A stretch of DNA of 64,000 bases from an uncultured Clostridia bacterium (GCA_944386605.1 CALXBS010000001.1:29718-93717); one strand, 5' to 3'. Numbered from the stretch's first letter, positions 9,571 through 61,684 are shown. Numbers and translations: made by a program. Notes: generated by a model from the letters alone, not told the origin.

Positions 9571-9605
9571 GGAGTATAATATCAAGTATATTATGCTCCT
9601 TTTCT
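9571..9605 (+). terminator. intrinsic terminator of ABC operon
   Basis: 12-bp stem GGAGTATAATAT/ATATTATGCTCC (one G-U pair), loop CAAGT, then TTTTCT. Confidence 0.7.
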
Positions 9606-9626
9606 GTATTTAATTTACATAAAATA

Positions 9627-9655
9627 TTGACAAAAACATGTTATCATGGTATAAT
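9627..9655 (+). promoter_or_regulatory. sigma-A promoter of adhesin 1
   Basis: TTGACA (9627-9632), 17 nt spacer, TGgTATAAT (9647-9655). About 140 nt of leader containing the hairpin GCTAAAAT...ATTTTAGC. Confidence 0.6.
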
Positions 9656-9795
9656 TAAAATAGATTTGTACGTTTATAGTGGCTAAAATTAAATTACTTA
9701 TTTGATTTTAGCTATATTTATGATATAATATTCTTGCATAAGTAAAATATAATATAATATTTTAATATATTTTAATATATTAGGGAGGTATTAAA

Positions 9796-12700
9796 ATGAA
9801 AGTATTAGAAAGATTAAAGGGAATAAAAAACATAAAAATGAAAGTAGTAACGATACTTATGCTAATCGTTTTAATGTCATTGCAATTAACACCTTTTACG
9901 TTGCTTGCAACCGCAACACAGTTGCAGTTTTATAGTCCAGGACTAATAACTCCTGCAACAGATGTAGCATATGGAAAAAACGTATTCTTTACTAATGCGA
10001 CTTTAGGTGGTGATACAGCATACTGTGTAGACTATGGTAGATCATTGCCTACAGGTACAATGACGTATTATAAGCAATTATCAGCACAAGGTGTGTCAAT
10101 TTTAGTATATGGTTATCCAAATACATCACCTGCAGAAATGGGATGTGCGTCAGCAGATGAAGCATATATGGCAACTCAGTTAGCGTTTTGGACAGTATTA
10201 CAAAAAACAGGTGAATCAGAAGGACCAAGAACATTTAATTTGGATAATATATATGCAAAACCAGGATATGAAGAATTTATGCAAAGAGCAGCTGCTGCAG
10301 CAAGAAGACTTAATGCAAGAGCACTAGCAGATCCATATATTCCAAATCCTGAGCTAAATGTAGATTCAAGTAGTGCAAAATTGGTAAATAGTAATGGTGA
10401 AATTATTACAGGACCATATGTACTAAATGTAACAGGTGGAACTGTGTCATCTATAAAAGTGTCTCTTTCAGGAGCACCAACATCAGCAAGAACAACTGAT
10501 GGAAATGGAAATAGTAAATCAACATTTTCAAATGGAGAAGCTGTATATGTAAGATTTAATCAAAATGAAACAGGATCAACCATGAGATTAAATGTAGAAG
10601 CAGATACAAACAAAGTAGTAGGAAGTATATATACATCAGGAAATAGTAGTGTACAAAACTTTGTAAAATTGGATACAGTACCTGTAGAATTATCAACATA
10701 TGTAGATATAAGATGGGGAACACAAACAGGAGCAATAGAAATATACAAAGTAGACCAAGACGATAATGAAGTAGAGGGAGTAACATTTGAATTAAGAAAT
10801 GAAGATGGAGAAACATTAGCAGAAGGAACAACAGGAAGTAACGGATATATAAAATTTTCAAATGTACAACCAGGAAGATATGAATTGGTAGAAGTAGATG
10901 CGCCATCAGAATATGAGATGAGAGAAGATCCAATAGAGGTAACAGTAGAAGCAAATCAAACAATCAGAAAAACAATCGAAAATAAAAGAAAAGAAGTAGA
11001 AGGATCATTAGAAATTAAAAAAGTAGATGAAGAAGGAAAAGCAATTCCAAATGTAACATTTGAGATATTAGATGAAGATAGAAACAAAATCGGAGAAATA
11101 ACAACAGATGAAAACGGAAGAGCCAAAATAAGTAACTTAGAAGTAGGAACATACTATTATAGGGAAATAAAAGCGCCAGTAAATGTAATAGTAGATAAAA
11201 CTGTAAAAGAATTTAAAATAACAAAAAGTAATAGAAATGTAGTAGAAGAAGTAGTAAATGAAAAAGTAAAAGGATCATTACAAATTATAAAAGTAGACGA
11301 ATCAAATGAACCAATAGCAGGAGTAAAATTTGATATACTAGACAGTAATAAGAAAGTAATAGAAACAATAACCACAAATGCAAGTGGAGTAGCAGTATCA
11401 AAAGATTTAACTCCAGGCACCTATTATTATAAAGAAGTAGAGGCTCCAAGTAATGTTACAATGGATACAAATGAGTATGAATTTAAAATAGAATCAACAG
11501 GTCAAATAATTACAAAAACAGTAGTTAATAAGGTGGCTAAAGGAAAATTAGAAATTCATAAAGTAGATAGTACAAATACTCCAATAGCAGGGGTAAAATT
11601 CAATATATTAGATAGCAATAAAAATGTAATTCAAACAATAACAACAAACGAAAATGGTATAGCTACTTCAAAAGACTTACCAATTGGAACCTATTACTAT
11701 AAAGAAGTAGAAGCACCAAGTAATGTTGTAATGGATACAAATGAATATGAATTTAGATTATCAAGTAATAATCAAGTATTAGCTAAAACAGTAGTAAACC
11801 AAGTAGCAAAAGGAAAATTAGAAATTCATAAAGTAGATAATACTAATAAACCAATAGCAGGAGTAAAATTTGATATATTAGATAGTAACAAAAATGTGAT
11901 AGAAACCATTGTCACAGATGAGAATGGTATAGCTACTTCAAAGGATTTAGCGCCAGGAACCTATTACTATAAAGAAGTAGAAGCACCAAGTAATGTTATC
12001 ATGGACACAAAAGAATATGAATTTAGAATTTCTGGTTCTAATCAAGTGGTTACAAAAACTGTAGTTAACCAAGTTGTAAATGGCAAATTAGAAATTCATA
12101 AAGTAGACAATACTAATAAACCAATAGCAGGTGTAAAATTTGATATCTTAGATAGCAATAAAAATGTAATTCAAACAATAACAACAAACGAAAATGGTAT
12201 AGCTACTTCAAAAGACTTACCACTTGGAACATACTATTACAAAGAAGTGGAAGCACCAAGTAATGTTATTATGGATACAAAAGAATATGAATTTAGAATT
12301 TCAAGTGCTAACCAAGTCATTACTAAAACAGTAGTTAACCAAATAGCAAATGGTAAATTAGAAATTCACAAAGTAGATAATACAAATGCTCCAATAGCCG
12401 GAGTAAAATTTGAAATTCTAGATAGCAATAAAAATGTAATAGAAACCATTGTTACAGATGAAAATGGTATAGCTACTTCAAAAGATTTACCACTTGGAAC
12501 ATATTATTACAGAGAAGTAGAAGCGCCAAGTAATGTCGTAATGGATACAAAAGAATATGAATTTAGAATTTCAAGTGCTAACCAAGTAATTACAAAAACA
12601 GTAGTTAACCAAATTATAAATGGTAGACTAGAAATTACTAAGGTAAATAATGAAAATGAACCAATTGAAGGTGTAAAATTTGAAATTTTAGATAGTAACA

Positions 12701-13566
12701 AAAATGTGATAGAAACCATTGTTACAGATGAAAATGGTAAAGCTACTTCAAAAGATTTACCAATTGGAACTTATTACTACAGAGAAGTAGAAGCTCCAGA
12801 TAATGTATATATGGATACAAAAGAATACAAATTTAAGATTACAGAAACAAATACTGTTATTGTAAAAACAGTGGTTAATAAATTAATAGAAGGAAGTTTA
12901 AAAATTATCAAAGTAGATGAAAATGATACTCCATTAAAAGGTGTAAAATTTGAAATCTTAGATAGTGATAAAAAAGTAGTAGATACGATTGTAACAGACA
13001 AAGATGGTATAGCTGTATCTAAAAAATTACCAATTGGAACATACTATTATAGAGAGGTAGAAGCACCTGATACAGTTGTTATGGATACTACAGAACATAA
13101 ATTTGTATTAAATGAAACAAATCAATTAATTGTAAAGAAAATTGTAAATAATCTTGCAACTGGAAAACTAGAGATTTTAAAACTTGATAAAGATAAAAAT
13201 ACTCCAATAGAGGGTGTAAAATTTGAAATTTATAATGAAAATGAGGAATTGGTAGATACTATTATAACAGATAAAGATGGTAAAGCAGTATCAAAAGATT
13301 TACCAATTGGAACTTACTTCTTTAAAGAAGTAGAAGCTCCAGATTCATATATTATGGATTCTAATACATATAAATTTAAGATTTCATCAGCAAATCAAAT
13401 CATTCATAAAACAGTGTATAACGAAAAAGAAAAACTTCCTGTAACAGGTGGTATGATTAGTACAGATGTTATGATTGTTATTGCAGTAGCTGTTTTAAGT
13501 ATACTTGGATATGTTGTGATGAATGCACTTTCAATAAAAAAGGAAAAAAATAATCAAAATATGTAA
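9796..13566 (+). CDS. LPXTG-anchored thioester-domain (TQXA) surface adhesin, 10 stalk domains
   Basis: Signal peptide ending LLATA. Cys77 in AYCVDYG (10024-10026) and Gln128 in ATQLAFW (10177-10179) form the thioester-domain signature. Then 10 units of about 90 aa (G.L.I.KVD...PI.GVKF.ILD...GTYYYKEVEAP...KTVVN) of SpaA-like/Cna-B isopeptide type. LPVTG (13435-13449), hydrophobic helix, KKEK tail. Confidence 0.9.
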   Translation: MKVLERLKGIKNIKMKVVTILMLIVLMSLQLTPFTLLATATQLQFYSPGLITPATDVAYGKNVFFTNATLGGDTAYCVDYGRSLPTGTMTYYKQLSAQGVSILVYGYPNTSPAEMGCASADEAYMATQLAFWTVLQKTGESEGPRTFNLDNIYAKPGYEEFMQRAAAAARRLNARALADPYIPNPELNVDSSSAKLVNSNGEIITGPYVLNVTGGTVSSIKVSLSGAPTSARTTDGNGNSKSTFSNGEAVYVRFNQNETGSTMRLNVEADTNKVVGSIYTSGNSSVQNFVKLDTVPVELSTYVDIRWGTQTGAIEIYKVDQDDNEVEGVTFELRNEDGETLAEGTTGSNGYIKFSNVQPGRYELVEVDAPSEYEMREDPIEVTVEANQTIRKTIENKRKEVEGSLEIKKVDEEGKAIPNVTFEILDEDRNKIGEITTDENGRAKISNLEVGTYYYREIKAPVNVIVDKTVKEFKITKSNRNVVEEVVNEKVKGSLQIIKVDESNEPIAGVKFDILDSNKKVIETITTNASGVAVSKDLTPGTYYYKEVEAPSNVTMDTNEYEFKIESTGQIITKTVVNKVAKGKLEIHKVDSTNTPIAGVKFNILDSNKNVIQTITTNENGIATSKDLPIGTYYYKEVEAPSNVVMDTNEYEFRLSSNNQVLAKTVVNQVAKGKLEIHKVDNTNKPIAGVKFDILDSNKNVIETIVTDENGIATSKDLAPGTYYYKEVEAPSNVIMDTKEYEFRISGSNQVVTKTVVNQVVNGKLEIHKVDNTNKPIAGVKFDILDSNKNVIQTITTNENGIATSKDLPLGTYYYKEVEAPSNVIMDTKEYEFRISSANQVITKTVVNQIANGKLEIHKVDNTNAPIAGVKFEILDSNKNVIETIVTDENGIATSKDLPLGTYYYREVEAPSNVVMDTKEYEFRISSANQVITKTVVNQIINGRLEITKVNNENEPIEGVKFEILDSNKNVIETIVTDENGKATSKDLPIGTYYYREVEAPDNVYMDTKEYKFKITETNTVIVKTVVNKLIEGSLKIIKVDENDTPLKGVKFEILDSDKKVVDTIVTDKDGIAVSKKLPIGTYYYREVEAPDTVVMDTTEHKFVLNETNQLIVKKIVNNLATGKLEILKLDKDKNTPIEGVKFEIYNENEELVDTIITDKDGKAVSKDLPIGTYFFKEVEAPDSYIMDSNTYKFKISSANQIIHKTVYNEKEKLPVTGGMISTDVMIVIAVAVLSILGYVVMNALSIKKEKNNQNM
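9870..11321 (+). repeat. 1,452-bp direct repeat, copy A (identical to 15202-16653)
   Basis: Offset is exactly 5,332 bp. Last upstream mismatch is at 9869, first downstream mismatch at 11322 (A versus G at 16654). Spot-checked line by line; the encoded proteins and the antisense shadow ORFs are identical. Near-identity continues to about 11600. Confidence 0.85.
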
Positions 13567-13580
13567 GAATTTACAATCTA

Positions 13581-13607
13581 GGGCATCCAGATAGGGTGTC
13601 CTTTTTT
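13581..13607 (+). terminator. weak intrinsic terminator after adhesin 1
   Basis: GGGCATCCagataGGGTGTCC (8-bp stem including two G-U pairs) followed by TTTTTT. It ends 14 nt before the sigma gene start. Confidence 0.6.
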
Positions 13608-13621
13608 ATGGGAGTTTGCAT

Positions 13622-14146
13622 ATGTTAGAAATGATAGAAAAAGCTAGAAAAGGGGATAAAGAGGCTTTTATTAATTTAATAAAGCTTGTAGAAAAAAAGC
13701 TATATGTGATTGCAAGATCACGCTTAAATAATGAAGAGGATATAAAAGACGCTGTTCAGGAAACTATATTTTTGTTATATAAAAATATTCCAAAATTAAA
13801 GGATATTCAAAAATTTAATGGGTATATGGCAAAAATTATGATAAATAGTTGTAATAAAATAGTGATAAAAAAAGGTAAACATATTTCTTATGATGTAGTT
13901 CAAAATGAAGAGTTTTTGATAGAAAAAGATAAATATGAAGATATTGATAAGAAACTAGATTTTTTTACAATTATTTCTTTTTTAGAAGTAGAAGAAAGAA
14001 CACTGATATCTATGTATTATTCCGATGATTATACGACAAAAGAAATTAGTAAAATATTAAAGATGAATGAAAGTACAATTAGGAGTAAAATAAAAAGAAT
14101 AAAAGAAAAGCTAAAACAAAGATATGGAGAGGAGGGAATAGAATGA
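13622..14146 (+). CDS. ECF-type sigma-70 family RNA polymerase sigma factor
   Basis: About 175 aa with regions 2 and 4 only: DAVQETIFLLYKNIPKL (region 2) and EERTLISMYYSDDYTTKEISKILKMNESTIRSKIKRIKEKL (region 4 HTH). ATG 13622 follows GGGAG; a TTG at 13616 is the alternative start. Confidence 0.85.
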   Translation: MLEMIEKARKGDKEAFINLIKLVEKKLYVIARSRLNNEEDIKDAVQETIFLLYKNIPKLKDIQKFNGYMAKIMINSCNKIVIKKGKHISYDVVQNEEFLIEKDKYEDIDKKLDFFTIISFLEVEERTLISMYYSDDYTTKEISKILKMNESTIRSKIKRIKEKLKQRYGEEGIE

Positions 14147-14955
14147 AACCTGAAGATAAACTAGATCAATGGATGAAAGAAAAGTACCAAGAAATGAAGA
14201 TTCCTTTAGATTTAGAAAAAGACTTTTTTGAAAAGTTAGAAAAGAAGGATGATAAGTCAAAGGTGCAATACTTAAAGTATGTAGCGATTATTCTGTTTAT
14301 TTGTGCAATCATAGCAACTACTGTAATTATTGTAAATATAGTAAAGAATCATGATAATCCAGAGGAATTAATAGCAGAAGAAAATGAAGAATATCAAGTT
14401 GCTTTAAAAATTGATCAAGCATGTTACGAAAAGATGGATGGATATAGCTATTTTGTATCTTCTTCAAGTATTGCGCAAGCAGTAGAATCAGCTGATATTA
14501 TTGCGATTGTAAAAATAGTGACGATAGAAGATATTCAAATGTATAGCGAAAATCTTGGAGAAACAAGAGGAAAGTTGTTAATGAATACGGTTCTAAAAGG
14601 GGACGCTATTCCCGGCGATATGATGGTATATAGAAATATAGGAAGCTATATTATTTTAAAAGAAGAATATAGAGATCGAATCATAACGGATATATCACAA
14701 GATATATATTCTCGTATGGAAAATCAAAGTCAGAATGATGTTGAACCAGGTAAAACATATCTAGCACATATACGCTTTGAGCATGGAGTTGGTACAACAG
14801 GATATGGAAAAGGAAGTCTTATGGAAATTTTAAATATCTCTCAACAAAATAAGATGAGTGTAGAAGAGTATGATTTAAATGAATTGATTTTCTATAATAA
14901 CGAATTACAACAAACACAGACAGTTCAAGAATATATAGAAGAATATTTAAAGTAA
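14143..14955 (+). CDS. putative anti-sigma factor, single-pass membrane protein
   Basis: ATGA start/stop overlap with the sigma gene. About 55-aa cytoplasmic N-terminus with no Cys or His (so not a ZAS type), one TM helix (YVAIILFICAIIATTVIIVNIV), and a roughly 200-aa extracytoplasmic domain of unrecognised family. Confidence 0.5.
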   Translation: MKPEDKLDQWMKEKYQEMKIPLDLEKDFFEKLEKKDDKSKVQYLKYVAIILFICAIIATTVIIVNIVKNHDNPEELIAEENEEYQVALKIDQACYEKMDGYSYFVSSSSIAQAVESADIIAIVKIVTIEDIQMYSENLGETRGKLLMNTVLKGDAIPGDMMVYRNIGSYIILKEEYRDRIITDISQDIYSRMENQSQNDVEPGKTYLAHIRFEHGVGTTGYGKGSLMEILNISQQNKMSVEEYDLNELIFYNNELQQTQTVQEYIEEYLK

Positions 14956-14979
14956 ACGTGCTTGCACGTTTCTTTTTTT
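14954..14979 (+). terminator. intrinsic terminator of sigma/anti-sigma unit
   Basis: AAACGTGCttGCACGTTT followed by CTTTTTTT. Confidence 0.8.
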
Positions 14980-15145
14980 ACTAAATAAAAAACCATTTTA
15001 ACTGAGAAAATACGTATATTCAGTTAAATGTAATAAAAATGAAATATATACATCACAAAATTGTAACAATTCATTGATTTTCTTAGAGAAATATGATAAA
15101 ATATATTATGTAATGTAGTAATAACGTGGTAACGGAGGTATTAAA

Positions 15146-18100
15146 ATGAAAGGAATAAAAAATATAAAAGTAAAGATAGCGAGTATATTTATGTTAATTG
15201 CTTTAATGTCATTGCAATTAACACCTTTTACGTTGCTTGCAACCGCAACACAGTTGCAGTTTTATAGTCCAGGACTAATAACTCCTGCAACAGATGTAGC
15301 ATATGGAAAAAACGTATTCTTTACTAATGCGACTTTAGGTGGTGATACAGCATACTGTGTAGACTATGGTAGATCATTGCCTACAGGTACAATGACGTAT
15401 TATAAGCAATTATCAGCACAAGGTGTGTCAATTTTAGTATATGGTTATCCAAATACATCACCTGCAGAAATGGGATGTGCGTCAGCAGATGAAGCATATA
15501 TGGCAACTCAGTTAGCGTTTTGGACAGTATTACAAAAAACAGGTGAATCAGAAGGACCAAGAACATTTAATTTGGATAATATATATGCAAAACCAGGATA
15601 TGAAGAATTTATGCAAAGAGCAGCTGCTGCAGCAAGAAGACTTAATGCAAGAGCACTAGCAGATCCATATATTCCAAATCCTGAGCTAAATGTAGATTCA
15701 AGTAGTGCAAAATTGGTAAATAGTAATGGTGAAATTATTACAGGACCATATGTACTAAATGTAACAGGTGGAACTGTGTCATCTATAAAAGTGTCTCTTT
15801 CAGGAGCACCAACATCAGCAAGAACAACTGATGGAAATGGAAATAGTAAATCAACATTTTCAAATGGAGAAGCTGTATATGTAAGATTTAATCAAAATGA
15901 AACAGGATCAACCATGAGATTAAATGTAGAAGCAGATACAAACAAAGTAGTAGGAAGTATATATACATCAGGAAATAGTAGTGTACAAAACTTTGTAAAA
16001 TTGGATACAGTACCTGTAGAATTATCAACATATGTAGATATAAGATGGGGAACACAAACAGGAGCAATAGAAATATACAAAGTAGACCAAGACGATAATG
16101 AAGTAGAGGGAGTAACATTTGAATTAAGAAATGAAGATGGAGAAACATTAGCAGAAGGAACAACAGGAAGTAACGGATATATAAAATTTTCAAATGTACA
16201 ACCAGGAAGATATGAATTGGTAGAAGTAGATGCGCCATCAGAATATGAGATGAGAGAAGATCCAATAGAGGTAACAGTAGAAGCAAATCAAACAATCAGA
16301 AAAACAATCGAAAATAAAAGAAAAGAAGTAGAAGGATCATTAGAAATTAAAAAAGTAGATGAAGAAGGAAAAGCAATTCCAAATGTAACATTTGAGATAT
16401 TAGATGAAGATAGAAACAAAATCGGAGAAATAACAACAGATGAAAACGGAAGAGCCAAAATAAGTAACTTAGAAGTAGGAACATACTATTATAGGGAAAT
16501 AAAAGCGCCAGTAAATGTAATAGTAGATAAAACTGTAAAAGAATTTAAAATAACAAAAAGTAATAGAAATGTAGTAGAAGAAGTAGTAAATGAAAAAGTA
16601 AAAGGATCATTACAAATTATAAAAGTAGACGAATCAAATGAACCAATAGCAGGGGTAAAATTCGATATACTAGACAGTAATAAGAAAGTAATAGAAACAA
16701 TAACCACAAATGCAAGTGGAGTGGCGGTATCAAAAGATTTACCAATTGGAACCTATTATTACAAAGAAGTAGAGGCTCCAAGTAATGTTGTAATGGATAC
16801 AAATGAGTATGAATTTAAAATAGAATCAACAGGTCAAATAATTACAAAAACAGTAGTAAACAAAGTGGCCAAAGGAAAATTAGAAATTCATAAAGTAGAT
16901 AATACAAATACTCCAATAGCAGGTGTAAAATTTAATATACTAGATAGTAATAAAAATGTAGTAGATACGATTGTTACAAATGCAAGTGGAGTAGCGGTAT
17001 CAAAAGATTTACCAATTGGAACCTATTACTATAAGGAAGTAGAAGCTCCAAGTAATGTTGTAATGGATACTAACGAATATGAATTTAAATTAACAAGTAA
17101 TGAACAAGTATTGGTAAAAACAGTAATCAATGATTTACAAAAAGGTTCTATTCAAATTTTTAAAATAGATAGTGAAAGAACTCCAATTCCTGGTGTTACT
17201 TTTCAAATATTAGATAGTAATAAAAATGTAATAGATACAATTATTACTGATGAAAATGGTAAGGCTTCTTCTAAAGAGTTAGAGCCAGGAACTTATTATT
17301 ACAAAGAGTTTAAAGCACCAGCAAATGTTGTTTTAGATGATCAAGAATATGAATTTAGAATTAGTGGAACAACAATTGTTGAAAAAACAGTGGTTAATCA
17401 AATTGCTAAGGGAAAAATAAAAATTGTAAAAGTAGATAATACTAGTACCCCAATAGCAGGAGTAAAATTTGATATCTTAGATAGCAATAAAAACGTAGTA
17501 GATACGATTGTTACAGATGAAAATGGTATTGCAATATCTGATAATTTAAAATTAGGAACTTATTATTACAAAGAAGTAGAAGCTCCAAGTGATGTGATTA
17601 TGGATACTAATGAATATACATTTAAGCTTTCTTATAACACGCAAGTAATCGAGAAAAGAGTAATCAACCAAAAAGTAAAAGGAGCTATTGAAATATATAA
17701 ATATGATGAAAATGCTACTCCAATAGCTGGAGTAAAATTTGATATCTTAGATAGTAACAAAAAGGTAGTAGATACGATTGTTACTGATGAAAATGGTAAA
17801 GCAGTTTCTAGTATGTTAGAAGTTGGAACTTATTATTATAAAGAAGTAGAAGCTCCAAGTAATGTTATTATGGATTCTACAGAACATGCTTTTATCATAA
17901 CAGAAACAAATGTTGTGGTGAAAAAGACAGTTGTTAACCAACTTGCAAAAGGAAATTTAAAAATAATTAAGGTAGATGAAAATGCAACTCCAATAGCCGG
18001 AGTAACATTTGAAATATTAGATAGTAATAAAACAGTAGTAGATACTATTATTACAGATGAAAATGGTATAGCTACTTCAAAAGATTTACCACTTGGAACC

Positions 18101-20236
18101 TATTATTACAAAGAGGTGAAAGCACCAAGTAATGTAATCATAGACTCTACAGAATATTCATTTATATTATCAGAAGATAACCAAGTAATTCAAAAAACAG
18201 TTGTTAACCGCTTGGTAGCTGGAAACTTAAAAGTGGTAAAAGTAGATGAAAAAAATGTACCAATAGCAGGTGTAACATTTAATATATTAGATGTGGATAA
18301 AAAAGTAATTGATACCATTGTTACAGACGAAAATGGTACTGCTATGTCAAAAGATTTAGCAATTGGAACTTATTATTACAAAGAAGTAAAAGTACCAGAT
18401 GGATATATCTTAGATACAACAGAATATAAATTTAAAATCACAGAGGTAAGCTCTTTGATTCAAAAGAAAGTAGTTAATAAAACAACAAAAGTAAGTATTA
18501 CTAAAACGGACATTACAGGAGATAAAGAATTACCAGGTGCAACATTACAAATACTAGATAAAAATGGAAATATAATAGAAGAATGGGTATCAGGAACAGA
18601 AGCACATGTGATAGAAGGAAAATTAATTGCAGGAGAAGAGTATACTTTAAGAGAAACAATTGCTCCAGATGGATATGCTTATGCAGAAGATATTGTATTT
18701 ACAGTAGACAAAACTGGAAATGTGACTCAGGTTGTAATGAAAGATGATGTTACTAAAGTAAGTATTACCAAAACAGATATTACAGGAGATGAAGAACTAC
18801 CAGGCGCAACATTGCAAATACTAGATAAGAATGGAAACGTAATAGAAGAATGGGTATCAGGAACAGAAGCACATGTGATAGAAGGAAAATTAATTGCAGG
18901 AGAAGAATATACATTAAGAGAAACAATTGCTCCAGATGGATATGCTTATGCAGAAGATATTGTATTTACAGTAGACAGAACTGGAAAAGTTACACAAGTT
19001 GTAATGAAAGACGATATTTTAAGAGGAGAAGTAGAAATTCCTGTTGTTAAAGTTTGGGAAGATTATGATAATCAGTATCAAACACGTCCTGAAAAAATAA
19101 CAGTACAAGTAAAAGTAGGCGATGAAGTAGTAGCAGAACATGATATCACAGAACAAGATGATTGGAAATATACTTTTACTAATTTACCAAAATATGATGA
19201 AAATGGTAAAGAAATTGTATATACAATTGATGAAAAAGATTTAGGTAATATTCAATATGAAAAATCAATACAAGGTAATACAATTACTAACAAGTTGCTA
19301 ATAGGTGCTTTAAAAATCATAAAAGTAGATGAGAATAATATTCCTCTTGCAGGAGTAGAATTTGAAATATTAGATAGTAACAAAAAGGTAGTAGATACGA
19401 TTGTTACAGATGAAGAAGGAATTGCAATTTCAAGAGAATTAGCAATTGGAAAAACATACTATTTTAAAGAGACTAAAGTACCAGAAGGAATTATCTTAGA
19501 TTCTACAGAACATAAATTTGTTTTAAACGAAGTAACAGATATAGTTGTTAAGAAAATTGTTAACTATTATCAAAAAGGAAATATTCAAATTGTTAAGGTG
19601 GATACAGAGGATCAACCAATTGAAGGTGTAGTGTTCCATATCTTAGATGAAAATGGTAAAGTGGTAGATAGCATTACTAGTGATGAAAATGGTATTGCTA
19701 CTTCTAAGAAATTACCATTAGGAACTTATTATTATCAAGAAATAAGTGCCCCTGAAAATTATGTAGTTGATACAACGATTCATAAATTTAAATTAACAGA
19801 AAATGAGCAAACTATTGTAAAAAAAGTAGTTAATATAGAAAAATATGGATCTTTACAAATATTAAAATTAGATAAAAAATCAAATGCGCCAATTGCAAAT
19901 GTACAATTTAACATTATGGATGTAAATGGTAATATTTTAGATACGGTTACAACCGATGAAAATGGTATTGCAGTTTCTAAAAATTTACCAATGGGAACAT
20001 ATTATTATCAGGAAATAAGTGCTCCAAATGGTTACATTATGGATAAAAATGTGTATGACTTTACATTAGAAACACATGAACAAATTGTAAATGTGACAGT
20101 ATATAATGAAAAAGAAGAACTTCCTGTAACTGGTGGTGTAATTAGTTTAGATTTTATGATTATTATTTGTGTATCTATCATTAGTATTTTAGGATATATG
20201 ATGAATGGTATTTTATCTGAAAGAAAGAAAAATTAA
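15146..20236 (+). CDS. LPXTG-anchored thioester-domain (TQXA) surface adhesin, 15 stalk domains (mosaic)
   Basis: The N-terminal ~500 aa from MSLQLTPF onward are identical to adhesin 1, with the same Cys/Gln thioester signature. There are 12 SpaA-like units, plus 2 x 89-aa units (KVSITKTDITGD.ELPGATLQILDKNG...EEYTLRETIAPDGYAYA) and one classical Cna-B unit (VVKVWEDYDNQYQTRPEKITVQV...WKYTFTNLPKYDENGKEIVYTIDE). LPVTG at 20120-20134, then TM helix and RKKN. Confidence 0.9.
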   Translation: MKGIKNIKVKIASIFMLIALMSLQLTPFTLLATATQLQFYSPGLITPATDVAYGKNVFFTNATLGGDTAYCVDYGRSLPTGTMTYYKQLSAQGVSILVYGYPNTSPAEMGCASADEAYMATQLAFWTVLQKTGESEGPRTFNLDNIYAKPGYEEFMQRAAAAARRLNARALADPYIPNPELNVDSSSAKLVNSNGEIITGPYVLNVTGGTVSSIKVSLSGAPTSARTTDGNGNSKSTFSNGEAVYVRFNQNETGSTMRLNVEADTNKVVGSIYTSGNSSVQNFVKLDTVPVELSTYVDIRWGTQTGAIEIYKVDQDDNEVEGVTFELRNEDGETLAEGTTGSNGYIKFSNVQPGRYELVEVDAPSEYEMREDPIEVTVEANQTIRKTIENKRKEVEGSLEIKKVDEEGKAIPNVTFEILDEDRNKIGEITTDENGRAKISNLEVGTYYYREIKAPVNVIVDKTVKEFKITKSNRNVVEEVVNEKVKGSLQIIKVDESNEPIAGVKFDILDSNKKVIETITTNASGVAVSKDLPIGTYYYKEVEAPSNVVMDTNEYEFKIESTGQIITKTVVNKVAKGKLEIHKVDNTNTPIAGVKFNILDSNKNVVDTIVTNASGVAVSKDLPIGTYYYKEVEAPSNVVMDTNEYEFKLTSNEQVLVKTVINDLQKGSIQIFKIDSERTPIPGVTFQILDSNKNVIDTIITDENGKASSKELEPGTYYYKEFKAPANVVLDDQEYEFRISGTTIVEKTVVNQIAKGKIKIVKVDNTSTPIAGVKFDILDSNKNVVDTIVTDENGIAISDNLKLGTYYYKEVEAPSDVIMDTNEYTFKLSYNTQVIEKRVINQKVKGAIEIYKYDENATPIAGVKFDILDSNKKVVDTIVTDENGKAVSSMLEVGTYYYKEVEAPSNVIMDSTEHAFIITETNVVVKKTVVNQLAKGNLKIIKVDENATPIAGVTFEILDSNKTVVDTIITDENGIATSKDLPLGTYYYKEVKAPSNVIIDSTEYSFILSEDNQVIQKTVVNRLVAGNLKVVKVDEKNVPIAGVTFNILDVDKKVIDTIVTDENGTAMSKDLAIGTYYYKEVKVPDGYILDTTEYKFKITEVSSLIQKKVVNKTTKVSITKTDITGDKELPGATLQILDKNGNIIEEWVSGTEAHVIEGKLIAGEEYTLRETIAPDGYAYAEDIVFTVDKTGNVTQVVMKDDVTKVSITKTDITGDEELPGATLQILDKNGNVIEEWVSGTEAHVIEGKLIAGEEYTLRETIAPDGYAYAEDIVFTVDRTGKVTQVVMKDDILRGEVEIPVVKVWEDYDNQYQTRPEKITVQVKVGDEVVAEHDITEQDDWKYTFTNLPKYDENGKEIVYTIDEKDLGNIQYEKSIQGNTITNKLLIGALKIIKVDENNIPLAGVEFEILDSNKKVVDTIVTDEEGIAISRELAIGKTYYFKETKVPEGIILDSTEHKFVLNEVTDIVVKKIVNYYQKGNIQIVKVDTEDQPIEGVVFHILDENGKVVDSITSDENGIATSKKLPLGTYYYQEISAPENYVVDTTIHKFKLTENEQTIVKKVVNIEKYGSLQILKLDKKSNAPIANVQFNIMDVNGNILDTVTTDENGIAVSKNLPMGTYYYQEISAPNGYIMDKNVYDFTLETHEQIVNVTVYNEKEELPVTGGVISLDFMIIICVSIISILGYMMNGILSERKKN
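15202..16653 (+). repeat. 1,452-bp direct repeat, copy B (identical to 9870-11321)
   Basis: See copy A. Confidence 0.85.
18488..19021 (+). repeat. in-frame tandem repeat, 2 x 267 bp, inside adhesin 2
   Basis: GTAAGTATTAC begins at 18491 and again at 18758 (period 267 bp = 89 aa). The two units differ at only a few positions. Confidence 0.85.
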
Positions 20237-20490: not shown

Positions 20491-23400
20491 ATGAATAGGG
20501 AGCATAAAGGATTTTTTTCTAAGCTTTATAACCAAATTATTGGAATAAAGCATTTAAAACTAAAAATTGTCTCAATATTTCTAATTTTTATGTTGCTCAC
20601 ATTGCAATTATCCCCTTTTATGCTACAAGCTACTGCAACACAGTTGCAATATTACTCACCTGGTCTTGTGACACCTGCTACCGATGTATATTACCAAAAA
20701 AATGTATTTTTTAGTAATTCCACATTGGGAGGTGAAACTGCATATTGTGTAGACTATGGTAGATCTTTACCAAGTGGCACAATGACCTATTACAAGCAGT
20801 TATCCGCACAAGGTGTATCTATTCTTGTGTATGGTTATCCAAATACATCGCCTGCTGAAATGGGATGTGCTTCAGCAGATGAAGCATATATGGCAACACA
20901 ACTTGCCTTTTGGACAGTTTTACAAAAAACTGGTGAATCAGAAGGTCCAAGAGTATTTGATTTGGATAATATATATGCAAAACCAGGCTATGAGGAGTTT
21001 ATGCAAAGAGCAGCTGCAGCAGCAAGGAGGCTAAATGCAAGAGCAATTGCAGATCCATATATTCCAAGCCCTGAGTTAAATGTAGATACTACGCAAGCCA
21101 AGTTTGTTAATCAAAATGGTAATATTGTAACAGGTCCATACATTTTAAATGTAACTGGTGGTACAGTATCTTCCATTAAGGCTTCACTTTCTGGCGCTCC
21201 AAGTTCTGCTAAAATTATAGATGGAAATGGAAATGAAAAATCAACATTTTCAAATGGAGAAGCAGTATATGTTTCTATTAATGAAAATGAGCAAGGTTCA
21301 ACCATGACATTAAATGTTTTTGCAGATACAAATAAAGTGACAGGTAGCATTTATACATCAGGAAATGATAGTGTTCAAAACTTTGTAAAATTAGATACCA
21401 TTCCAGTGGAATTATCTACTTATGTGGATATTAAGTGGGGAACACAAACAGGAGCGGTCGAAGTTTACAAAGTGGATCAAAATGAAGATCCAGTTGCAGG
21501 CGCAACTTTTGAATTAAGAAATGGAAATGGAGAAACATTAGCAGAAGGAACAACAGGTAGTAACGGATATATTAAGTTTTCAAATGTAACAGTAGGACAA
21601 TATGAATTGGTTGAAACAGAAGTACCTTCTGGATATATTGGTTCAGATGAGTCTATTATTTTTAATGTAACTGCAGGTAACACTTATTCTGTTACAGTAG
21701 AAAATGAGAAAATATCTGGGTCTTTACAAATAAAAAAGAAGGATACAGATAATAATCCAATACCAAATGTTACTTTTGAAATATTAGATGAGGATAGAGA
21801 CAAAATTACAGAAGTAACCACCAATGAAGAAGGAATAGCAAGAGTCAATAACTTAGCAAATGGTACCTATTATTTTAGAGAAATAAAAGTACCTGTTAAT
21901 GTTATTATGGATTCTTCTTTACATGAGTTTAATATTACTAGAGCAGATCAAGTGGTTACAAGAGAAATTACAAATGAGCTAATTACAGGTGGAATAAAGA
22001 TTGTAAAAACAGATGAAAATAAGCTTCCTATAGAAGGTGTAAAATTTCAATTACTAAATTCTGCTAAACAAGTTGTTACGACTGCGACAACAAATTCAAG
22101 TGGTATTGCAGTGTTTAATAATCTTTCTGTTGGAACCTATTATTATCAAGAAATAGAAGTACCAGAAGGATATGTTATAGATAATACAGAACATGTATTT
22201 TCTATTACCAATACACAACAATTACTAACAGAAAATGTTGTTAATCAAGTCATGAAAGCAAAATTAAGAATTGTTAAGAAAACAAATGATGATACTCCTA
22301 TTGCAAATGTAAAATTTGAAATCTTAAATGAAGATAAACAGGTATTAGAAACGATTACTACAAATGAATCAGGAATTGCAGAAACTTCTAGCTTACCAGT
22401 TGGAACGTATTACTACAAAGAAGTGGAAGCTCCAAATTATGTTATTATGGATACGAACGAATATAAATTTAAGCTTTCAAATAATGATCAAATAATAGAA
22501 AAAATAATTGTTAATGAATTAGCTAAGGCAAAATTAAAAATCATCAAAAAATCCAATGAAAACACGCCAATTGGTGGAGTAAAATTTGAGATTTTAGATC
22601 AGAATAAACAGGTACTGGAAACCATTACTACAAATGAAGAAGGAATAGCAGAAACTTCTAATTTATCAGTCGGCACTTATTATTATAAAGAGGTGGAAGC
22701 ACCTGGATATGTAGTAATGGATAGTGAAGAACATGAAGTGAGACTTTCTAGTAATAATCAGATAGTAGAAAGAACTGTTATTAATGAGTTAATAAAAGCA
22801 AAATTAAAAATTACGAAGAAAAATAATTTAGGTGAAGTAATTTCAGGAGTTAAGTTTGAAATTTTAGATGAAAATAAAAATGTGGTTGAAACGATTACCA
22901 CAAATGAATCAGGAATAGCAGAAACTTCTAGTTTACCAGTTGGTAAGTATTATTACAAAGAAGTAGCAGCTCCTGACAATGTTATCATGGATACAAATGA
23001 GTATGTATTTCAACTTTCAACTAATAACCAGGTATTAGAAAAAACGGTTATTAATAATTTGGTAAAAGAACGATTAAAAATTATCAAAGTAGATGAAAAT
23101 AATAAACCAATTGCTAATGCCAAATTTCAAATTTTAAATTCCGATAAATCGGTTATAGAAGAAATCGTTACAAATCAAGAAGGAATTGCTTTATCTAGTG
23201 AATTAAGTGCAGGTGTTACTTATTATTATAAAGAGATAGAAGTGCCATATGGTTATACATTAGATAGCACTGAAAAAGCTTTTAGAGTAACAGAAAATTC
23301 TGGAGTGATTGTTAAAAGAGCGGTTAATAATATTCAAACAGGGGAATTAGAAATTATAAAGAAGGATAATAATCAAAATCCAATAGAAGGTGTAGAATTC

Positions 23401-26400
23401 CAGATTTTAGATGCTAATAAAAATGTAATAGAAACCATTACGACAAATAGCGAAGGAATAGCTACTTCACAAGAGTTAATGCTTGGAACATATTATTATC
23501 AAGAAATAAGCGCCCCTAATGATTTGAAAATAGATGAAACACTTTATGCTTTCAGCATTTCAGAAGATAATCAAGTTGTTACAAGAACGGTAATTAATGA
23601 GTTAATTACAGGAAAATTAGAAATTGTAAAAGTAGATGAAAATAAATTACCAATTGCAAATGTCACTTTTGCAATTAAAGATGAGAATAAAACAACAATT
23701 CAGACTATAACAACAGATGAAAACGGAATTGCTTTATCGGATCCTCTATCAAAAGGAAAATATTATTATCAAGAAATAGAAACGGCAGATGGTTATGTTT
23801 TAGATGATAAAGAGTATGTATTTGTTATTGACGGTGAAAATGAAATCATTCAAAAAAAGGTGATTAATCAATTTGTACGTGGAAATCTTAGAATTGAAAA
23901 ATTAGATACTGCAGGTAAGCCACTATCTGGTGTTCAATTTGAAATTTTAAATGAAAACAAAGAAGTGGTAGAAACACTAACAACTAATAGTGAGGGAATT
24001 GCAATTAGTAATCCTTTATTAAAAGGAAAATACTATTACAGAGAATCAAAAGTACCAGATGGACTACAAATAGATACAACAGAGCATATATTTGTAATTT
24101 CTGAAAATGACCAAATCATTCAAAAAAGAGTGATTAATGAATATTTAGAAAAAGGAACATTAGAAATCTATAAAGTAGATGAAAATAGTATTCCAATTGA
24201 AAATGTTACTTTCCAAATTTTAGATGGTCAAAAAAATATAGTAGAAGAAATTACAACGAACGCAGAAGGAAAAGCAACATCTAGTGATCTTAAGATAGGC
24301 ACTTATTATTATAAGGAAATATCGGCACCAGATGAGTATGTAATGGATACAACAGAACATAAATTTGTATTATCGGAAGATAATCAAGTAGTTTATAAAA
24401 CAGTTATTAATACCCATGAAAAAGGAAGCTTAAAGATCATTAAAGTAGATGAAAATGATGTGCCTTTACAAGGAATTGTATTCCATATCTTAAATAGTAA
24501 TCAAGAGGTAATTCAAACGATTACAACAAATGAAGCTGGTATAGCCGTATCTAATGAATTACAAAAAGGAAATTATTATTATCAAGAAGTAGAAGTTCCA
24601 GAAAATATTTTAATTGATCGAACTATTTATCCTTTTGAAGTATCTGAAAATAACCAAATTGTGATTAAAAATATGGTAAATGAGTATCTTAAGGGGAATT
24701 TAAAAATCATCAAAACTGATGAGAATAACAAGCCTCTTGCAGGAGTAAAATTCCATATTTTAGATAGTAACAAAACAGTAATTGATACGATTATTACAAA
24801 TGAGGAAGGTATTGCAACTAAAGATAGTCTTTTAATTGGAACCTATTATTATCAGGAAATAGAAGCTCCAGAGCACGTGATCATAGATTCGAATCAGTAT
24901 GAATTTAGTATTACAGCTCAAAATCTAGTGGTAGAAAAAAGTATAGTAAATAAATATGAAAAATCAAGTTTAAAAATTATTAAGGTAGACGAGGAAAATC
25001 ATCCAATTGCAAATGTAACCTTTGCAATATTAGATGAAAATAAACAAAAGATAAATGAAATTGTTACAAATGAAGAAGGAATTGCCATTTTAGAAAATAT
25101 GTCACTTGGAACCTATTATTATCAAGAGTTAAGTGTTCCAAATGAATATGTAAAAGATGAGACAATTTATGAATTTAGAATATCAGAGTATGGTCAAACA
25201 ATTACTAAAACAGTGGTAAATAAACTTGCAACAGGAAGATTAAGAATTCAAAAAGTAGATGAAAACAATATCCCACTTGCAGGTGTTAAGTTTGATATAT
25301 TGGATCATAAACAAAATTATGTAGAGACCATAGTAACTGATGAAAACGGAATTGCTTTGTCAGACTTTTTAGAATTAGGAAAATATTATTATCAAGAAAC
25401 AGAAGCTCCCGAACATGTAATTATTGATGATAAAATTTATGAATTTTCAATTACTCAAAATAATGAAATTGTCATTAAAAATATGACAAACTTTTACAAA
25501 AAGTCAAGTTTAAAAATAATAAAAGTGGACGAAAACAATCATCCAATTGCAAATGTAACCTTTGCAATATTAGATGAAAATAAACAAAAGATAAATGAAA
25601 TTATAACAAATGAAGAAGGAATTGCTATATTAGAAAATATGTCACTTGGAACTTACTATTATCAGGAATTAAGTGTTCCAAATGGATATGTAAAAGATGA
25701 TACAATTTATGAATTTAGAATATCAGAATATGAGCAAATGATTACTAAAACAGTGGTAAATCAATTCGCAAGAGGAAGTTTAAAAGTTATCAAGGTAGAT
25801 GAGAATAGTGTACCACTTGCTGGAATCAAATTTAACATATTAGATAGCAATCAAAAATATATTCAAACAATTGTAACGGACGAAAATGGAATTGCACAGA
25901 CTTCTAATTTAACACTAGGAACTTATTATTATCAAGAAGTAGAAGCACCTGAATACGTCATTATGGATAATACAATTTATGAATTTACCATTAGTGAAAA
26001 TAATGAGGTAGTCATTAAAAATATTGTAAATCATTATGAGAAATCTACCTTTACCATTATCAAAGTAGATGAAAATGAAATACCTTTACAAGGAATTACA
26101 TTTGATATATTAGATAATAATAAGAATGTAATTGATACAATAGTAACTGATGAAAATGGCGTTGCTAAATCAAAAGAACTTTCATTAGGCACATATTATT
26201 ATCAAGAAACTAAAGTGCCAGATGGTCTTGTATTAGATAATCATCTTTATGAATTTGAAGTAACAGGCTATGGTCAGAATGTTATTAAAAATATGGTCAA
26301 TTACTATGTTAGAGGAAAGTTTCAAATTATTAAAAGAGGATTGGACGGAAAAGTTTTAGCGGGTGCAAGATTTAATATTTTAGATGAAAATCAAAATATC

Positions 26401-60619: not shown

Positions 60620-61684
60620 ATGATATCTGAAGAAAGAAAAAAAGCACTAGATATAGCAATGGCACAAATTGAAAAAAACTTTGGAAAAGGTGCAGTAATG
60701 AAATTAGGAGAGGTTGGAAATGTAGCAGTTGATTCTATTCCATCAGGAGCTTTAAGTCTTGATATTGCATTAGGAATTGGTGGTTTTCCAAGAGGAAGAA
60801 TTATTGAAGTTTTTGGTCCAGAATCTTCTGGTAAAACAACAGTAGCTTTGCATGCAATTGCAGAGGCTCAAAAATTAGGGGGAGTAGCCGCATTTATTGA
60901 CGCTGAACATGCTTTAGATCCAGTATATGCAAGAAATTTAGGAGTAGATGTAGATAACTTAATTGTCGCACAACCTGATACAGGAGAACAAGCTTTAGAA
61001 ATTACAGAACAACTTGTAAGAAGTGGAGCAGTAGATATTATTACAGTTGACTCTGTAGCTGCATTAGTGCCAAAAGCTGAAATTGATGGAGAAATGGGAG
61101 ATGCCCATGTTGGATTACAAGCAAGGTTAATGTCACAAGCTTTAAGAAAATTAACAGGTGTTCTTAATAAATCCAACACAGTTGCGATTTTTATTAATCA
61201 GTTACGTGAAAAAGTAGGTGTTATGTTTGGAAATCCAGAAACAACACCTGGTGGAAGAGCATTAAAATTTTATTCATCTATTCGTTTAGATGTTAGAAAA
61301 CAAGAAGCAATTAAAATAAATGGAGAAGTGGTAGGAACAAGAACCAAAGTAAAGGTAGTAAAAAATAAAGTAGCTCCTCCTTTTAGAGAAGCAGTATTTG
61401 ATATTGTTTATGGAAAAGGAATTTCTAATGAAGGATGTGTACTTGATTTAGCAACTGATATGAATATTGTTGAAAAAAGTGGAGCTTGGTTTGCATACAA
61501 TGGCAAAAAAATTGGTCAAGGAAGAGAAAATGCAAAGGTATATTTAAAAGAAAATCCTGAAATTATGAGTGAAATTGAGAAGAAAGTAAGAGATAACTTT
61601 AATACTGCTTTTGAAAAGAGTATGGGAGGTATCCCGGAAGCAGATGAAGTAGTCGAGGAAACTTCTGAAGAAATTGAGGAATAA
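60620..61684 (+). CDS. recA: recombinase RecA
   Basis: [49 protein letters not shown]. Confidence 0.98.

What the first reader, a model, noticed from the sequence alone, without database searches (positions are those of the whole stretch)
9870..16653. 1,452-bp identical direct repeat links adhesins 1 and 2 and brackets the sigma/anti-sigma cassette
Seen: 9870-11321 and 15202-16653 match base for base wherever I compared them, at an offset of exactly 5,332 bp. Identity starts inside the signal-peptide hydrophobic region and ends inside stalk domain 3. Promoters, leaders and the first ~25 codons differ. Near-identity continues for about 300 bp more. Adhesin 3 shares the same domain, but with many substitutions. 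Inference: this reflects either a very recent duplication or ongoing gene conversion that homogenises the thioester warhead. RecA-mediated recombination between the copies would delete 5.3 kb (the adhesin-1 stalk, sigma, anti-sigma and the adhesin-2 promoter) and place the adhesin-2 body under the adhesin-1 promoter. That would be a one-step switch removing the regulator and one stalk length. It is also a classic site for assembly error.
Basis: seen in the sequence. Interest (0 to 1): 0.65.

Follow-up and report, generated by a model that had tools for sequence, protein, structure and literature searches.

The report
Gene-conversion tract shared by two adhesin genes
Two neighbouring genes for covalent-binding surface adhesins in an uncultured chicken-gut Clostridium-like bacterium carry an identical 1,452-base head segment, most likely because the copies keep overwriting each other by gene conversion, a known process of which this is a clean but ordinary example.

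Summary
Window 9870-11321 and 15202-16653 are identical over 1,452 bp at an offset of 5,332, and this is the maximal exact run. The tract encodes the C-terminal half of the signal peptide, a complete class-II thioester domain and 2.2 stalk domains. It is shared by two tandem sortase-anchored adhesin genes, A1 (10 stalk domains) and A2 (15).

The best explanation is gene conversion (concerted evolution) between old paralogues, not a recent duplication. Synonymous divergence is 0 in the tract, about 0.24 to 0.78 just 3' of it, and saturated in the leader. An independent 87-kb metagenome contig matches the window at all 22,051 non-tract bases compared. It differs at 23 sites inside the tract, and the same 23 changes occur in both copies. 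Haplotypes group by sample, not by gene. Tract contigs have about twice the flank depth in six public runs. The third paralogue, A3, shares no exact match longer than 31 bp and has escaped conversion.

Most short-read assemblies do break at this repeat. No long reads were available, so collapse of rare differences between the copies cannot be fully excluded. This is a new member of a known kind, of modest interest.

The parts
9870..11321 (+). Identity tract, copy 1, inside adhesin gene A1 (codons 25-509). It encodes the rest of the signal peptide, the whole thioester domain (Cys77, TQLAFW 127-132, Gln287), stalk domains 1-2 and 18 codons of domain 3.
   Evidence: Exact match to copy 2; motif positions
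15202..16653 (+). Identity tract, copy 2, inside adhesin gene A2 (codons 19-503)
9796..13566 (+). A1: 1,256-aa sortase-anchored adhesin with signal peptide, class-II thioester domain, ten 90-aa SpaA/CnaB-type stalk domains, LPVTGG at residue 1214, a membrane span and a basic tail
   Evidence: Pfam TED 36.1 bits (cut-off 22) and SpaA x10; PDB 6fwv E=2.5e-11
11322..12000 (+). Graded-similarity zone 3' of the tract (partner 16654-17332). Identity to A2 falls from 96% to about 70%. Read as remnants of older or longer conversion events, blurred by exchange among the 270-bp stalk repeats.
   Evidence: dS 0.24 (codons 509-600) then 0.78 (codons 600-690)
9627..9655 (+). Consensus sigma-70-type promoter candidate for A1 (TTGACA-17-TATAAT with TG). 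It follows the terminator-like hairpin 9567-9603 that ends the upstream ABC transporter operon.
   Evidence: pattern match only
13580..13602 (+). Terminator-like hairpin after A1, directly followed by the ribosome-binding site and start of the sigma gene
13616..14146 (+). ECF-type sigma-70 family factor (regions 2 and 4). It lies between the two tract copies.
   Evidence: Pfam Sigma70_r2/r4/ECF; NCBIfam TIGR02937 70.1 bits, cut-off 42.9
14143..14955 (+). 270-aa protein with one membrane span, overlapping the sigma gene's stop by 4 nt. Candidate anti-sigma factor with no recognised domain. The terminator-like hairpin 14954-14971 overlaps its stop codon.
   Evidence: no family match above threshold
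15146..20236 (+). A2: 1,696-aa paralogue with the same head, 14 SpaA-type stalk domains plus Cna_B repeats, and LPVTGG
20491..27585 (+). A3: 2,364-aa third paralogue with 22 stalk domains. The head is 86.7% identical in protein, with dS about 0.96 to A1/A2. The longest exact DNA match to A1/A2 is 31 bp, so there is no recent conversion.
60620..61684 (+). recA, the recombinase that homologous gene conversion would need, is present in the same genome
   Evidence: Pfam RecA 470 bits

Best explanation
A1 and A2 are old tandem paralogues. Each encodes a cell-wall-anchored fibrillar adhesin with an N-terminal class-II thioester domain on a stalk of isopeptide-type Ig-like domains.

The 1,452-bp identity is a gene-conversion tract. 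Non-reciprocal homologous recombination between the two copies, 5.3 kb apart in direct orientation, repeatedly overwrites one head-encoding segment with the other. The two genes therefore evolve in concert over the signal-peptide end, the thioester head and the first 2.2 stalk domains. Their promoters, leaders and stalk lengths (10 versus 15 domains) stay different.

The 5' limit is a homology cliff in the signal-peptide region. The 3' side is graded because events end at different places and the 270-bp stalk repeats also exchange among themselves. A3 has diverged too far (about 74% DNA identity) to take part.

Shown here:
- the exact identity;
- zero synonymous divergence in the tract against diverged flanks;
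- different tract haplotypes in different samples, each shared by both copies.

Inferred:
- dependence on RecA;
- that homogenisation is ongoing rather than one recent event per lineage;
- any selective benefit of showing one head on two stalk lengths under two promoters.
For: (1): exact 1,452-bp match with a sharp 5' edge and graded 3' decay.

(2): in the tract there are no differences at about 325 synonymous sites. The only two counted lie in the boundary codons. By contrast, dS is 0.24 in codons 509-600, 0.78 in codons 600-690 and saturated in the leader. A1/A3 dS is 0.96 with dN 0.195, so purifying selection alone leaves synonymous sites free to diverge.

(3): the independent contig L002/L011 has no differences from the window over 22,051 non-tract bases. 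The 95% upper bound on background divergence is 1.4e-4, which predicts at most 0.2 changes per tract. The contig nevertheless has 23 substitutions in 9946-11091, and the identical 23 in 15278-16423.

(4): the eight A1/A2 alleles from six assemblies fall into haplotypes. W comprises win_A1, win_A2 and L003_A2. L comprises L002_A1, L002_A2, L018_A1 and L005_A2. L004_A2 is a mosaic. These haplotypes group by sample, and no site in the tract is fixed between A1 and A2.

(5): the W/L differences are 15 synonymous and 6 conservative codon changes. These are real alleles under purifying selection, not sequencing errors.

(6): in Logan contigs of six runs, single-copy contigs stop at 9899 and 15231, which is k-1 bases into the tract. 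Tract contigs carrying sample-specific variants have 1.4-2.5 times the flank depth (median about 2). This includes a third haplotype in run X18.

(7) Both long assemblies kept the single-base differences at 11322 and 11331 right next to the tract. Bubbles of that kind were therefore not being collapsed.

(8): a 270-bp stalk-repeat gain or loss with 12-bp microhomology separates the same two genomes, so recombination is active at the locus. A3 has no exact match longer than 31 bp.

(9): recA is present.
Against: - Every sequence available is a short-read metagenome assembly or a Logan contig. A de Bruijn assembler writes a collapsed repeat edge twice, so exact identity within one assembly is partly by construction. 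Sparse differences between the copies could have been popped.
- Samples may hold several strains. Runs X2, X18 and X20 show bubbles inside the tract (9916-10128 and 10311-10437). These could be differences between strains or between copies.
- The W-to-L change could also come from a single import of at least 6.5 kb spanning both copies from a donor with an otherwise identical cassette. That moves the conversion step into the donor's past rather than removing it.
- No conversion event was observed directly, and no long read spans either copy.
Confidence: 0.8

Rival explanations
1. Assembly artefact. The two copies are similar but not identical in the real genome. Short-read assemblers collapsed them into one graph edge and wrote it twice, so both the exact identity and the "same 23 changes in both copies" are by-products.
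For: - Most assemblies break exactly at the repeat. Contigs end at 9899/15231, and L012-L020 end 34-50 codons into A1.
- L004 walks around the loop. Its first 250 bases recur at position 5063.
- Logan contigs pop bubbles, as seen where the 11322/11331 bubble was resolved to one branch in run X1.
- Bubbles exist inside the tract in X2, X18 and X20.
- No long-read run could be found.
Against: - If A1 were W and A2 were L in each genome, random bubble popping at about 9 separate bubbles would give mosaics. Instead the window, L003 and L002 are pure W or pure L.
- Haplotype-specific contigs have about 2x depth rather than 1x. In X2, 29.3 against 14.4 where 22 would be expected.
- The same assemblies kept the single-base A1/A2 differences at 11322/11331 beside the tract.
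- L018 (A1 flanks on both sides) and L005 (A2 flanks on both sides) each cross the whole tract.
- The gene order is the only path that uses every unique edge once.
Confidence: 0.1
2. A very recent segmental duplication created the second copy, and there has been no time for differences to arise.
For: Exact identity over 1,452 bp in direct orientation at a short distance.
Against: - Duplication of the 5,332-bp unit would make the whole unit identical. Identity stops after 1.45 kb and decays to background by about 2.2 kb.
- The leader and promoter are diverged, with an indel.
- dS in adjacent homologous segments is 0.24-0.78 or more.
- Three or more different haplotypes are each shared by both copies. 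That would need a fresh duplication with identical end points in every lineage.
Confidence: 0.03
3. The repeat pair is a functional one-step switch. RecA-mediated crossover between the copies deletes the A1 stalk, the sigma factor, the candidate anti-sigma and the A2 promoter. This puts the A2 body under the strong A1 promoter, and the cell population exploits the change.
For: - 1,452 bp of perfect direct homology 5.3 kb apart is an efficient substrate for RecA-dependent deletion or duplication (established knowledge), and recA is present.
- Both tract starts are in the same codon phase, so the hybrid gene (about 1,702 aa) is in frame.
- A1 has a consensus promoter candidate and A2 a weaker one.
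- Cassette-to-flank depth ratios of about 0.85-1.0 would allow a minority of up to about 10%.
Against: - No deletion junction can be seen with short reads.
- The cassette depth is not clearly below the flank depth in X1, X2, X3 or X7.
- All three contigs that start at the A1 promoter and cross the tract (window, L002, L018) continue into the A1 stalk.
- The anti-sigma protein is found unchanged in 9 contigs.
- The deletion is irreversible, unlike true phase variation.
- Such deletions are an unavoidable side-effect of any long direct repeat and need not be adaptive.
- For: such junctions at reproducible, condition-dependent frequencies, together with a fitness or adhesion phenotype.
Confidence: 0.07

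Closest known systems
Gene conversion between Helicobacter pylori adhesin paralogues (babA/babB/babC, sabA/sabB); own knowledge; papers listed, e.g. PMC4552749, PMC3960876
   Same: Paralogous adhesin genes in one genome exchange segments by RecA-dependent non-reciprocal recombination. The result is chimeric or homogenised genes whose identical segments are bounded by diverged flanks.
   Different: - Those are Gram-negative outer-membrane proteins at dispersed loci, and conversion changes which adhesin is expressed.
- Here the genes are tandem Gram-positive sortase substrates.
- Here the tract is the binding head itself, and the outcome seen is homogenisation, not switching.
Class-II thioester-domain (TIE) surface proteins BaTIE, EfmTIE86 and SaTIE (PDB 6FWV, 6FWY, 6FX6; PMC6194298)
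   Same: - An N-terminal thioester domain with the [YFL]C-hydrophobic-hydrophilic motif (YCVD), TQXX-hydrophobic-W (TQLAFW) and a hydrophobic-Q-hydrophilic motif (VQNFV).
- A stalk of CnaB/SpaA-type isopeptide domains and an LPXTG-type anchor.
- Sequence match to 6FWV with E=2.5e-11 over residues 69-308.
   Different: - The stalks here are far longer (10, 15 and 22 domains against 3-5).
- Three tandem copies share one head type.
- The head is rare in databases, the best relatives being two fragments at 67% and 51% identity.
- No thioester bond or ligand is known.
Periscope proteins and repeat-number variation in Gram-positive surface proteins (alpha C/Rib, M protein; PMC9704523)
   Same: Stalks built of tandem repeats whose number changes by homologous recombination. 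Here one 270-bp unit differs between two otherwise identical genomes, with 12-bp microhomology at the junction.
   Different: Periscope repeats are typically near-identical in DNA. These stalk repeats are only 60-88% identical. The feature under study is identity between genes, not within a gene.
Concerted evolution of duplicated bacterial genes such as tufA/tufB and rRNA operons (own knowledge)
   Same: Duplicate copies kept identical or nearly so by recurrent RecA-dependent conversion. Alleles group by genome rather than by locus.
   Different: Those are housekeeping genes converted over their whole length. Here only the 5' 38% of A1 (29% of A2) is homogenised, and the remainder is free to differ.

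Membership tests
Gene conversion / concerted evolution between paralogues | A tract of (near-)identity bounded on both sides by homologous but diverged sequence | tested here: met
   1,452 bp exact. The 5' flank has 13 mismatches in 39 bp plus an indel. The 3' flank decays from 96% to 67%.
Gene conversion / concerted evolution between paralogues | Synonymous divergence in the tract far below that of adjacent segments of the same genes | tested here: met
   No differences at about 325 synonymous sites inside the tract, against dS 0.24, 0.78 and saturated in the flanks. A1/A3 dS is 0.96.
Gene conversion / concerted evolution between paralogues | Alleles group by genome, not by paralogue, with no paralogue-specific fixed sites | tested here: met
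   39 variable sites in 8 alleles and none fixed between A1 and A2. The window and L002 each have A1 = A2 but differ from each other at 23 sites. Caveat: all are short-read assemblies.
Gene conversion / concerted evolution between paralogues | Direct observation of a conversion event, or of both copies on single molecules | not testable with these tools
   No long-read runs were found.
Class-II thioester-domain (TIE) adhesin | Thioester-domain sequence signature: Pfam TED above threshold and the three motifs | tested here: met
   PF08341 at 36.1 bits against a cut-off of 22. YCVD at residues 76-79, TQLAFW at 127-132 and VQNFV at 286-290, with motif definitions from PMC6194298. NCBIfam TQXA_dom scored 26.5, below its cut-off of 30.4.
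Class-II thioester-domain (TIE) adhesin | Class-II architecture: a beta-sandwich insert that supplies the bond-forming Gln | tested here: inconclusive
   The sequence alignment to the class-II structure 6FWV runs through residues 69-308, including the VQN segment. No structure was predicted or compared.
Class-II thioester-domain (TIE) adhesin | An actual Cys-Gln thioester bond and covalent ligand capture | not testable with these tools
   Needs mass spectrometry or a crystal structure.
Class-II thioester-domain (TIE) adhesin | Sortase sorting signal and isopeptide-type stalk | tested here: met
   LPVTGG followed by a hydrophobic span and a basic tail. Ten SpaA-type domains, all but the first (which has YKVD and IEN) with conserved Lys (K-V/L-D/N), Glu (Y/F-x-E) and Asn (V/Y-N) positions. 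A class B sortase is at 47670-48434. The bonds themselves were not tested.
ECF sigma / anti-sigma pair | A sigma factor with regions 2 and 4 only that passes the ECF superfamily model | tested here: met
   Pfam r2, r4 and ECF. TIGR02937 at 70.1 bits against a cut-off of 42.9.
ECF sigma / anti-sigma pair | A co-transcribed membrane anti-sigma factor with a recognisable anti-sigma domain | tested here: inconclusive
   The adjacent gene overlaps by 4 nt and encodes one membrane span. It matches no Pfam or NCBIfam family above threshold.
Recombination-based phase or antigenic variation switch | Alternative junctions present in the population; a reversible or recurrent change in expression | tested here: inconclusive
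   Short reads cannot show a junction inside 1,452 identical bases. The cassette depth is about equal to the flank depth. Only the parental arrangement appears in contigs that cross the tract. The deletion would be irreversible. The differences between haplotypes are mostly synonymous, so they are not antigenic diversification.

The most novel reading that the evidence does not exclude
The head-encoding tract may be an exchangeable cassette. On this reading, allelic heads move between otherwise identical genomes and are then copied quickly to both expression sites, a strong promoter with a short stalk and a weaker promoter with a long stalk. The locus would then act as a two-site system for replacing the binding specificity of a covalent adhesin. 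Crossover between the copies could additionally serve as a one-way switch that discards the ECF sigma cassette.

The evidence does not exclude this. The only differences between two genomes over about 25 kb are the tract, changed alike in both copies, and one stalk repeat.
Probability: 0.1. Interest if true: 0.6.

Novelty: new member of a known kind. Interest (0 to 1): 0.3.

Why it matters
The finding shows recombination outpacing mutation at an adhesin locus in an uncultured gut bacterium. Two genomes with no differences in 22 kb still differ at 23 sites in the head-encoding segment, and both gene copies carry the same change.

For annotation, A1 and A2 should be read as one binding specificity displayed on two stalk lengths. 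The locus is also a predictable break point or mis-join point in short-read metagenome assemblies. The sigma cassette, flanked by the repeats, usually ends up on 2-5 kb contigs. Such short contigs could be lost from binned genomes, which is a possibility I did not test.

For adhesin biology, the locus offers three natural length variants of one class-II thioester head. It does not open a new mechanism.

Tried and rejected
- **Related genomes.** Species-level comparison was therefore not possible.
- **Head-domain homologues.** The search returned only two short fragments, at 67% and 51% identity. No family alignment was built.
- **Long reads.** No Nanopore or PacBio run holding the locus was listed.
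- **Organism.** Cluster look-ups carry no names. I considered chicken segmented filamentous bacteria. Their reported GC is about 25% (PMC12942676) against 28.9% here. That is not decisive, and the idea stays untested.
- **L004 as a duplication junction.** I first read L004 (A2 promoter, tract, A1-type stalk) as a different tract boundary or a duplication junction. I rejected this because its first 250 bases recur at position 5063, making it a loop-like walk through the repeat graph.
- **Run X7.** Its contig running through 15231 looked like a different 5' boundary. It is better explained by loss of coverage over the very AT-rich A1 promoter, and its mean depth of 9.98 fits a mix of 1x and 2x segments.
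- **ECF promoter.** A search for an ECF-type promoter (AAC-N15-19-CGT) upstream of A1, A2, A3 and the sigma gene gave one poorly spaced match, which I did not pursue.
- **A3 as donor.** Of the 23 W/L differences, L matches A3 at 10 sites, W at 8 and neither at 5. A3 is not the donor.
- **Exact A1 protein.** A look-up of the exact window A1 protein found no record. I did not explain this.
- **RNA families.** Rfam found nothing in the window.


Full report
**Observation.** Window 9870-11321 equals 15202-16653 at every one of 1,452 positions. The match cannot be extended by a single base on either side. At the same 5,332-bp offset, identity then falls stepwise (96, 91, 94, 78, 85, 67, 75% per 100 bp) and reaches background near 12,000. 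On the 5' side there are 13 mismatches in the last 39 bases, and A1 has an 18-nt insertion.

**What the sequences are.** The window has 28.9% G+C. It comes from a spore-forming Firmicute, with SpoIIID (just upstream of the window on related contigs), PolC, SipL, YunB and CtpB. The locus is found almost only in chicken-gut metagenomes.

Three tandem genes encode sortase-anchored fibrillar adhesins:
- A1, 9796-13566, 1,256 aa;
- A2, 15146-20236, 1,696 aa;
- A3, 20491-27585, 2,364 aa.

Each has a signal peptide and a thioester domain (Pfam TED above threshold). The stalks have 10, 14 (plus Cna_B repeats) and 22 SpaA-type 90-aa domains. Each ends with LPVTGG, a membrane span and a basic tail. The head matches the class-II thioester structure 6FWV (BaTIE) with E=2.5e-11 over residues 69-308. 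It carries the family's three motifs as defined in PMC6194298: YCVD (Cys77), TQLAFW (127-132) and VQNFV (Gln287). All three lie inside the tract.

Between A1 and A2 lie an ECF-type sigma factor (13616-14146; TIGR02937 above cut-off) and an overlapping gene for a 270-aa single-span membrane protein with no recognised domain. Pattern scans give a consensus sigma-70 promoter before A1. They give terminator-like hairpins after the upstream ABC transporter, after A1 and after the membrane-protein gene.

The tract runs from A1 codon 25, in the signal-peptide core, to codon 509, 18 codons into stalk domain 3.

**Conversion, not duplication.**
- Inside the tract there are no differences at about 325 synonymous sites. 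The next 90 codons have dS 0.24, the following 90 have 0.78, and the 18-24 leader codons are saturated.
- A recent duplication of the 5,332-bp unit would leave the whole unit identical, and it does not.
- Purifying selection cannot explain silent-site identity. A3 encodes a head that is 86.7% identical in protein but has dS 0.96 to A1 and A2.
- A3 shares no exact match longer than 31 bp with A1 or A2. It is below the homology needed for efficient recombination and has escaped.

**Population evidence.** Exact-protein look-ups recovered the locus from several metagenome assemblies. The 87-kb contig behind L002/L011 is the most informative. Over window 1-9869, 11322-15201 and 16654-25225, a total of 22,051 bases, it has no differences from the window apart from the loss of one 270-bp stalk repeat. 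Inside the tract it has 23 substitutions (9946-11091), and copy 2 has the same 23. With zero differences observed, the background rate predicts at most about 0.2 changes per tract.

The 23 changes fall in 21 codons, 15 synonymous and 6 conservative. They are genuine alleles shaped by purifying selection, not errors and not antigenic diversification.

Across eight alleles there are 39 variable sites, and none separates A1 from A2. The W haplotype occurs in win_A1, win_A2 and L003_A2. The L haplotype occurs in L002_A1, L002_A2, L018_A1 and L005_A2. L004_A2 is a mosaic with a 17-site, mostly synonymous patch at 9946-10098. The genomes are not wholly clonal, since adenylate kinase differs by one residue further downstream.

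**Independent check in raw-assembly graphs.** In Logan contigs of six public runs, single-copy contigs coming from the A1 and A2 promoters stop at 9899 and 15231. That is 30 bases into the tract, as expected at a k=31 branch. Tract contigs, including those that carry sample-specific variants, have 1.4-2.5 times the depth of the flanks, median about 2. Run X18 shows a third haplotype at twice the flank depth.

**Assembly caveat.** All data are short-read assemblies. A collapsed repeat edge is written twice, so identity within one assembly is partly by construction, and Logan contigs pop bubbles. Some runs show bubbles inside the tract (9916-10128 in X2; 10311-10437 in X18 and X20). These may be differences between strains or between copies.

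Four points argue against a pure artefact:
- The haplotypes in the window, L003 and L002 are clean rather than mosaic.
- Haplotype-specific sequence has 2x depth.
- The same assemblies kept the single-base A1/A2 differences at 11322 and 11331.
- L018 and L005 cross the tract with matching unique flanks on both sides.

No long-read run was available. I put the artefact at about 0.1.

**The proposed deletion switch.** Both tract starts are in the same codon phase. A crossover would give an in-frame hybrid gene of about 1,702 aa under the A1 promoter. It would remove the A1 stalk, the sigma factor, the membrane protein and the A2 promoter. recA is present. Such events must occur at some low rate.

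Nothing shows that they are frequent or used:
- The cassette depth is about equal to the flank depth.
- Only the parental arrangement is seen in contigs that cross the tract.
- The event is irreversible.
- L004, which seems to join the A2 promoter to an A1-type stalk, is a loop-like walk through the repeat graph and is not evidence.

Metatranscriptome contigs cover parts of A1, the membrane-protein gene and A2 at low depth. This is weak evidence of expression.

**Comparison with known systems and verdict.** The process is ordinary concerted evolution by gene conversion. It is known from H. pylori bab/sab adhesin paralogues and from tuf and rRNA genes (own knowledge; papers). The proteins are members, by sequence, of the class-II thioester-domain adhesins. 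The stalk-repeat polymorphism fits the repeat-number variation described for Periscope proteins (PMC9704523).

This is a new member of a known kind. Its merit is the unusually clean population signal. Interest 0.3.

Noticed in passing
window 15027-15052 and 20366-20389: A 24-26-nt element, AATGTAATAAAA(A)TGAAA(T)ATATACA, lies about 95-100 nt upstream of the start codons of A2 and A3. It occurs nowhere else in the window and is absent upstream of A1. It could be a shared regulatory site, perhaps for the ECF sigma factor. The pattern was derived from these two sites, so the chance estimate is not a fair test.
   Followed up: partly
window 16808-17089 (A2 stalk domains 3-4): The L002 contig lacks exactly one 270-bp stalk repeat. 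The crossover lies in a 12-bp microhomology, TATGAATTTAAA, at 16808-16819 and 17078-17089, giving A2 of 1,606 instead of 1,696 aa. L004 also seems to have one repeat fewer in A1.
   Followed up: yes
window 13567-13625: The terminator-like hairpin after A1 (13580-13602) is followed within about 10 nt by the ribosome-binding site and start of the sigma gene, leaving no room for a promoter. The sigma cassette may be transcribed by read-through from A1 or from a promoter inside the end of A1.
   Followed up: no
window 9946-10100 (and 15278-15432): The segment around the thioester Cys is the most polymorphic part of the tract across samples. At least four haplotypes are seen: W, L, the L004/X7 patch and the X18 type. 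Nearly all changes are synonymous, and 7 of the 17 patch sites match the A3 state. The source of these alleles is unknown.
   Followed up: partly
window 18485-19018: Two adjacent 267-bp units in A2 are 93% identical. They lie at or just before the Cna_B-type domain that Pfam places at residues 1299-1383. This is the most recent internal duplication in the three genes.
   Followed up: no
window 47670-48434: The only sortase in the window is a class B sortase (TIGR03064, 170 bits, cut-off 153.75), whereas the three adhesins carry LPVTGG. Whether this enzyme anchors them is unknown.
   Followed up: no
window 9604-9870: The very AT-rich A1 promoter region is missing or at low depth in several Logan assemblies. 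Contigs end at 9603, 9651 or 9567, and X20 has a 10-bp deletion at 9757. This is probably a coverage bias, and it can mimic structural differences.
   Followed up: partly
window 30204-30902: A metallo-beta-lactamase-fold protein with a weak, sub-threshold similarity to the anti-Pycsar nuclease Apyc1 (32.8 bits, cut-off 50). It sits between map and infA in the ribosomal-protein region.
   Followed up: no
window 44880-46694: A 604-aa fusion of an FGE-sulfatase-like domain, a flavodoxin domain and a cyclophilin-like domain. This is an unusual architecture that I did not examine further.
   Followed up: no
window 27639-30107: The adhesin cluster and Sua5 sit immediately upstream of adk-map-infA-rpmJ-rpsM. 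In many bacteria adk follows secY at the end of the spc ribosomal-protein operon (own knowledge). The adhesin block may therefore have been inserted into, or lie at a break in, that conserved region.
   Followed up: no
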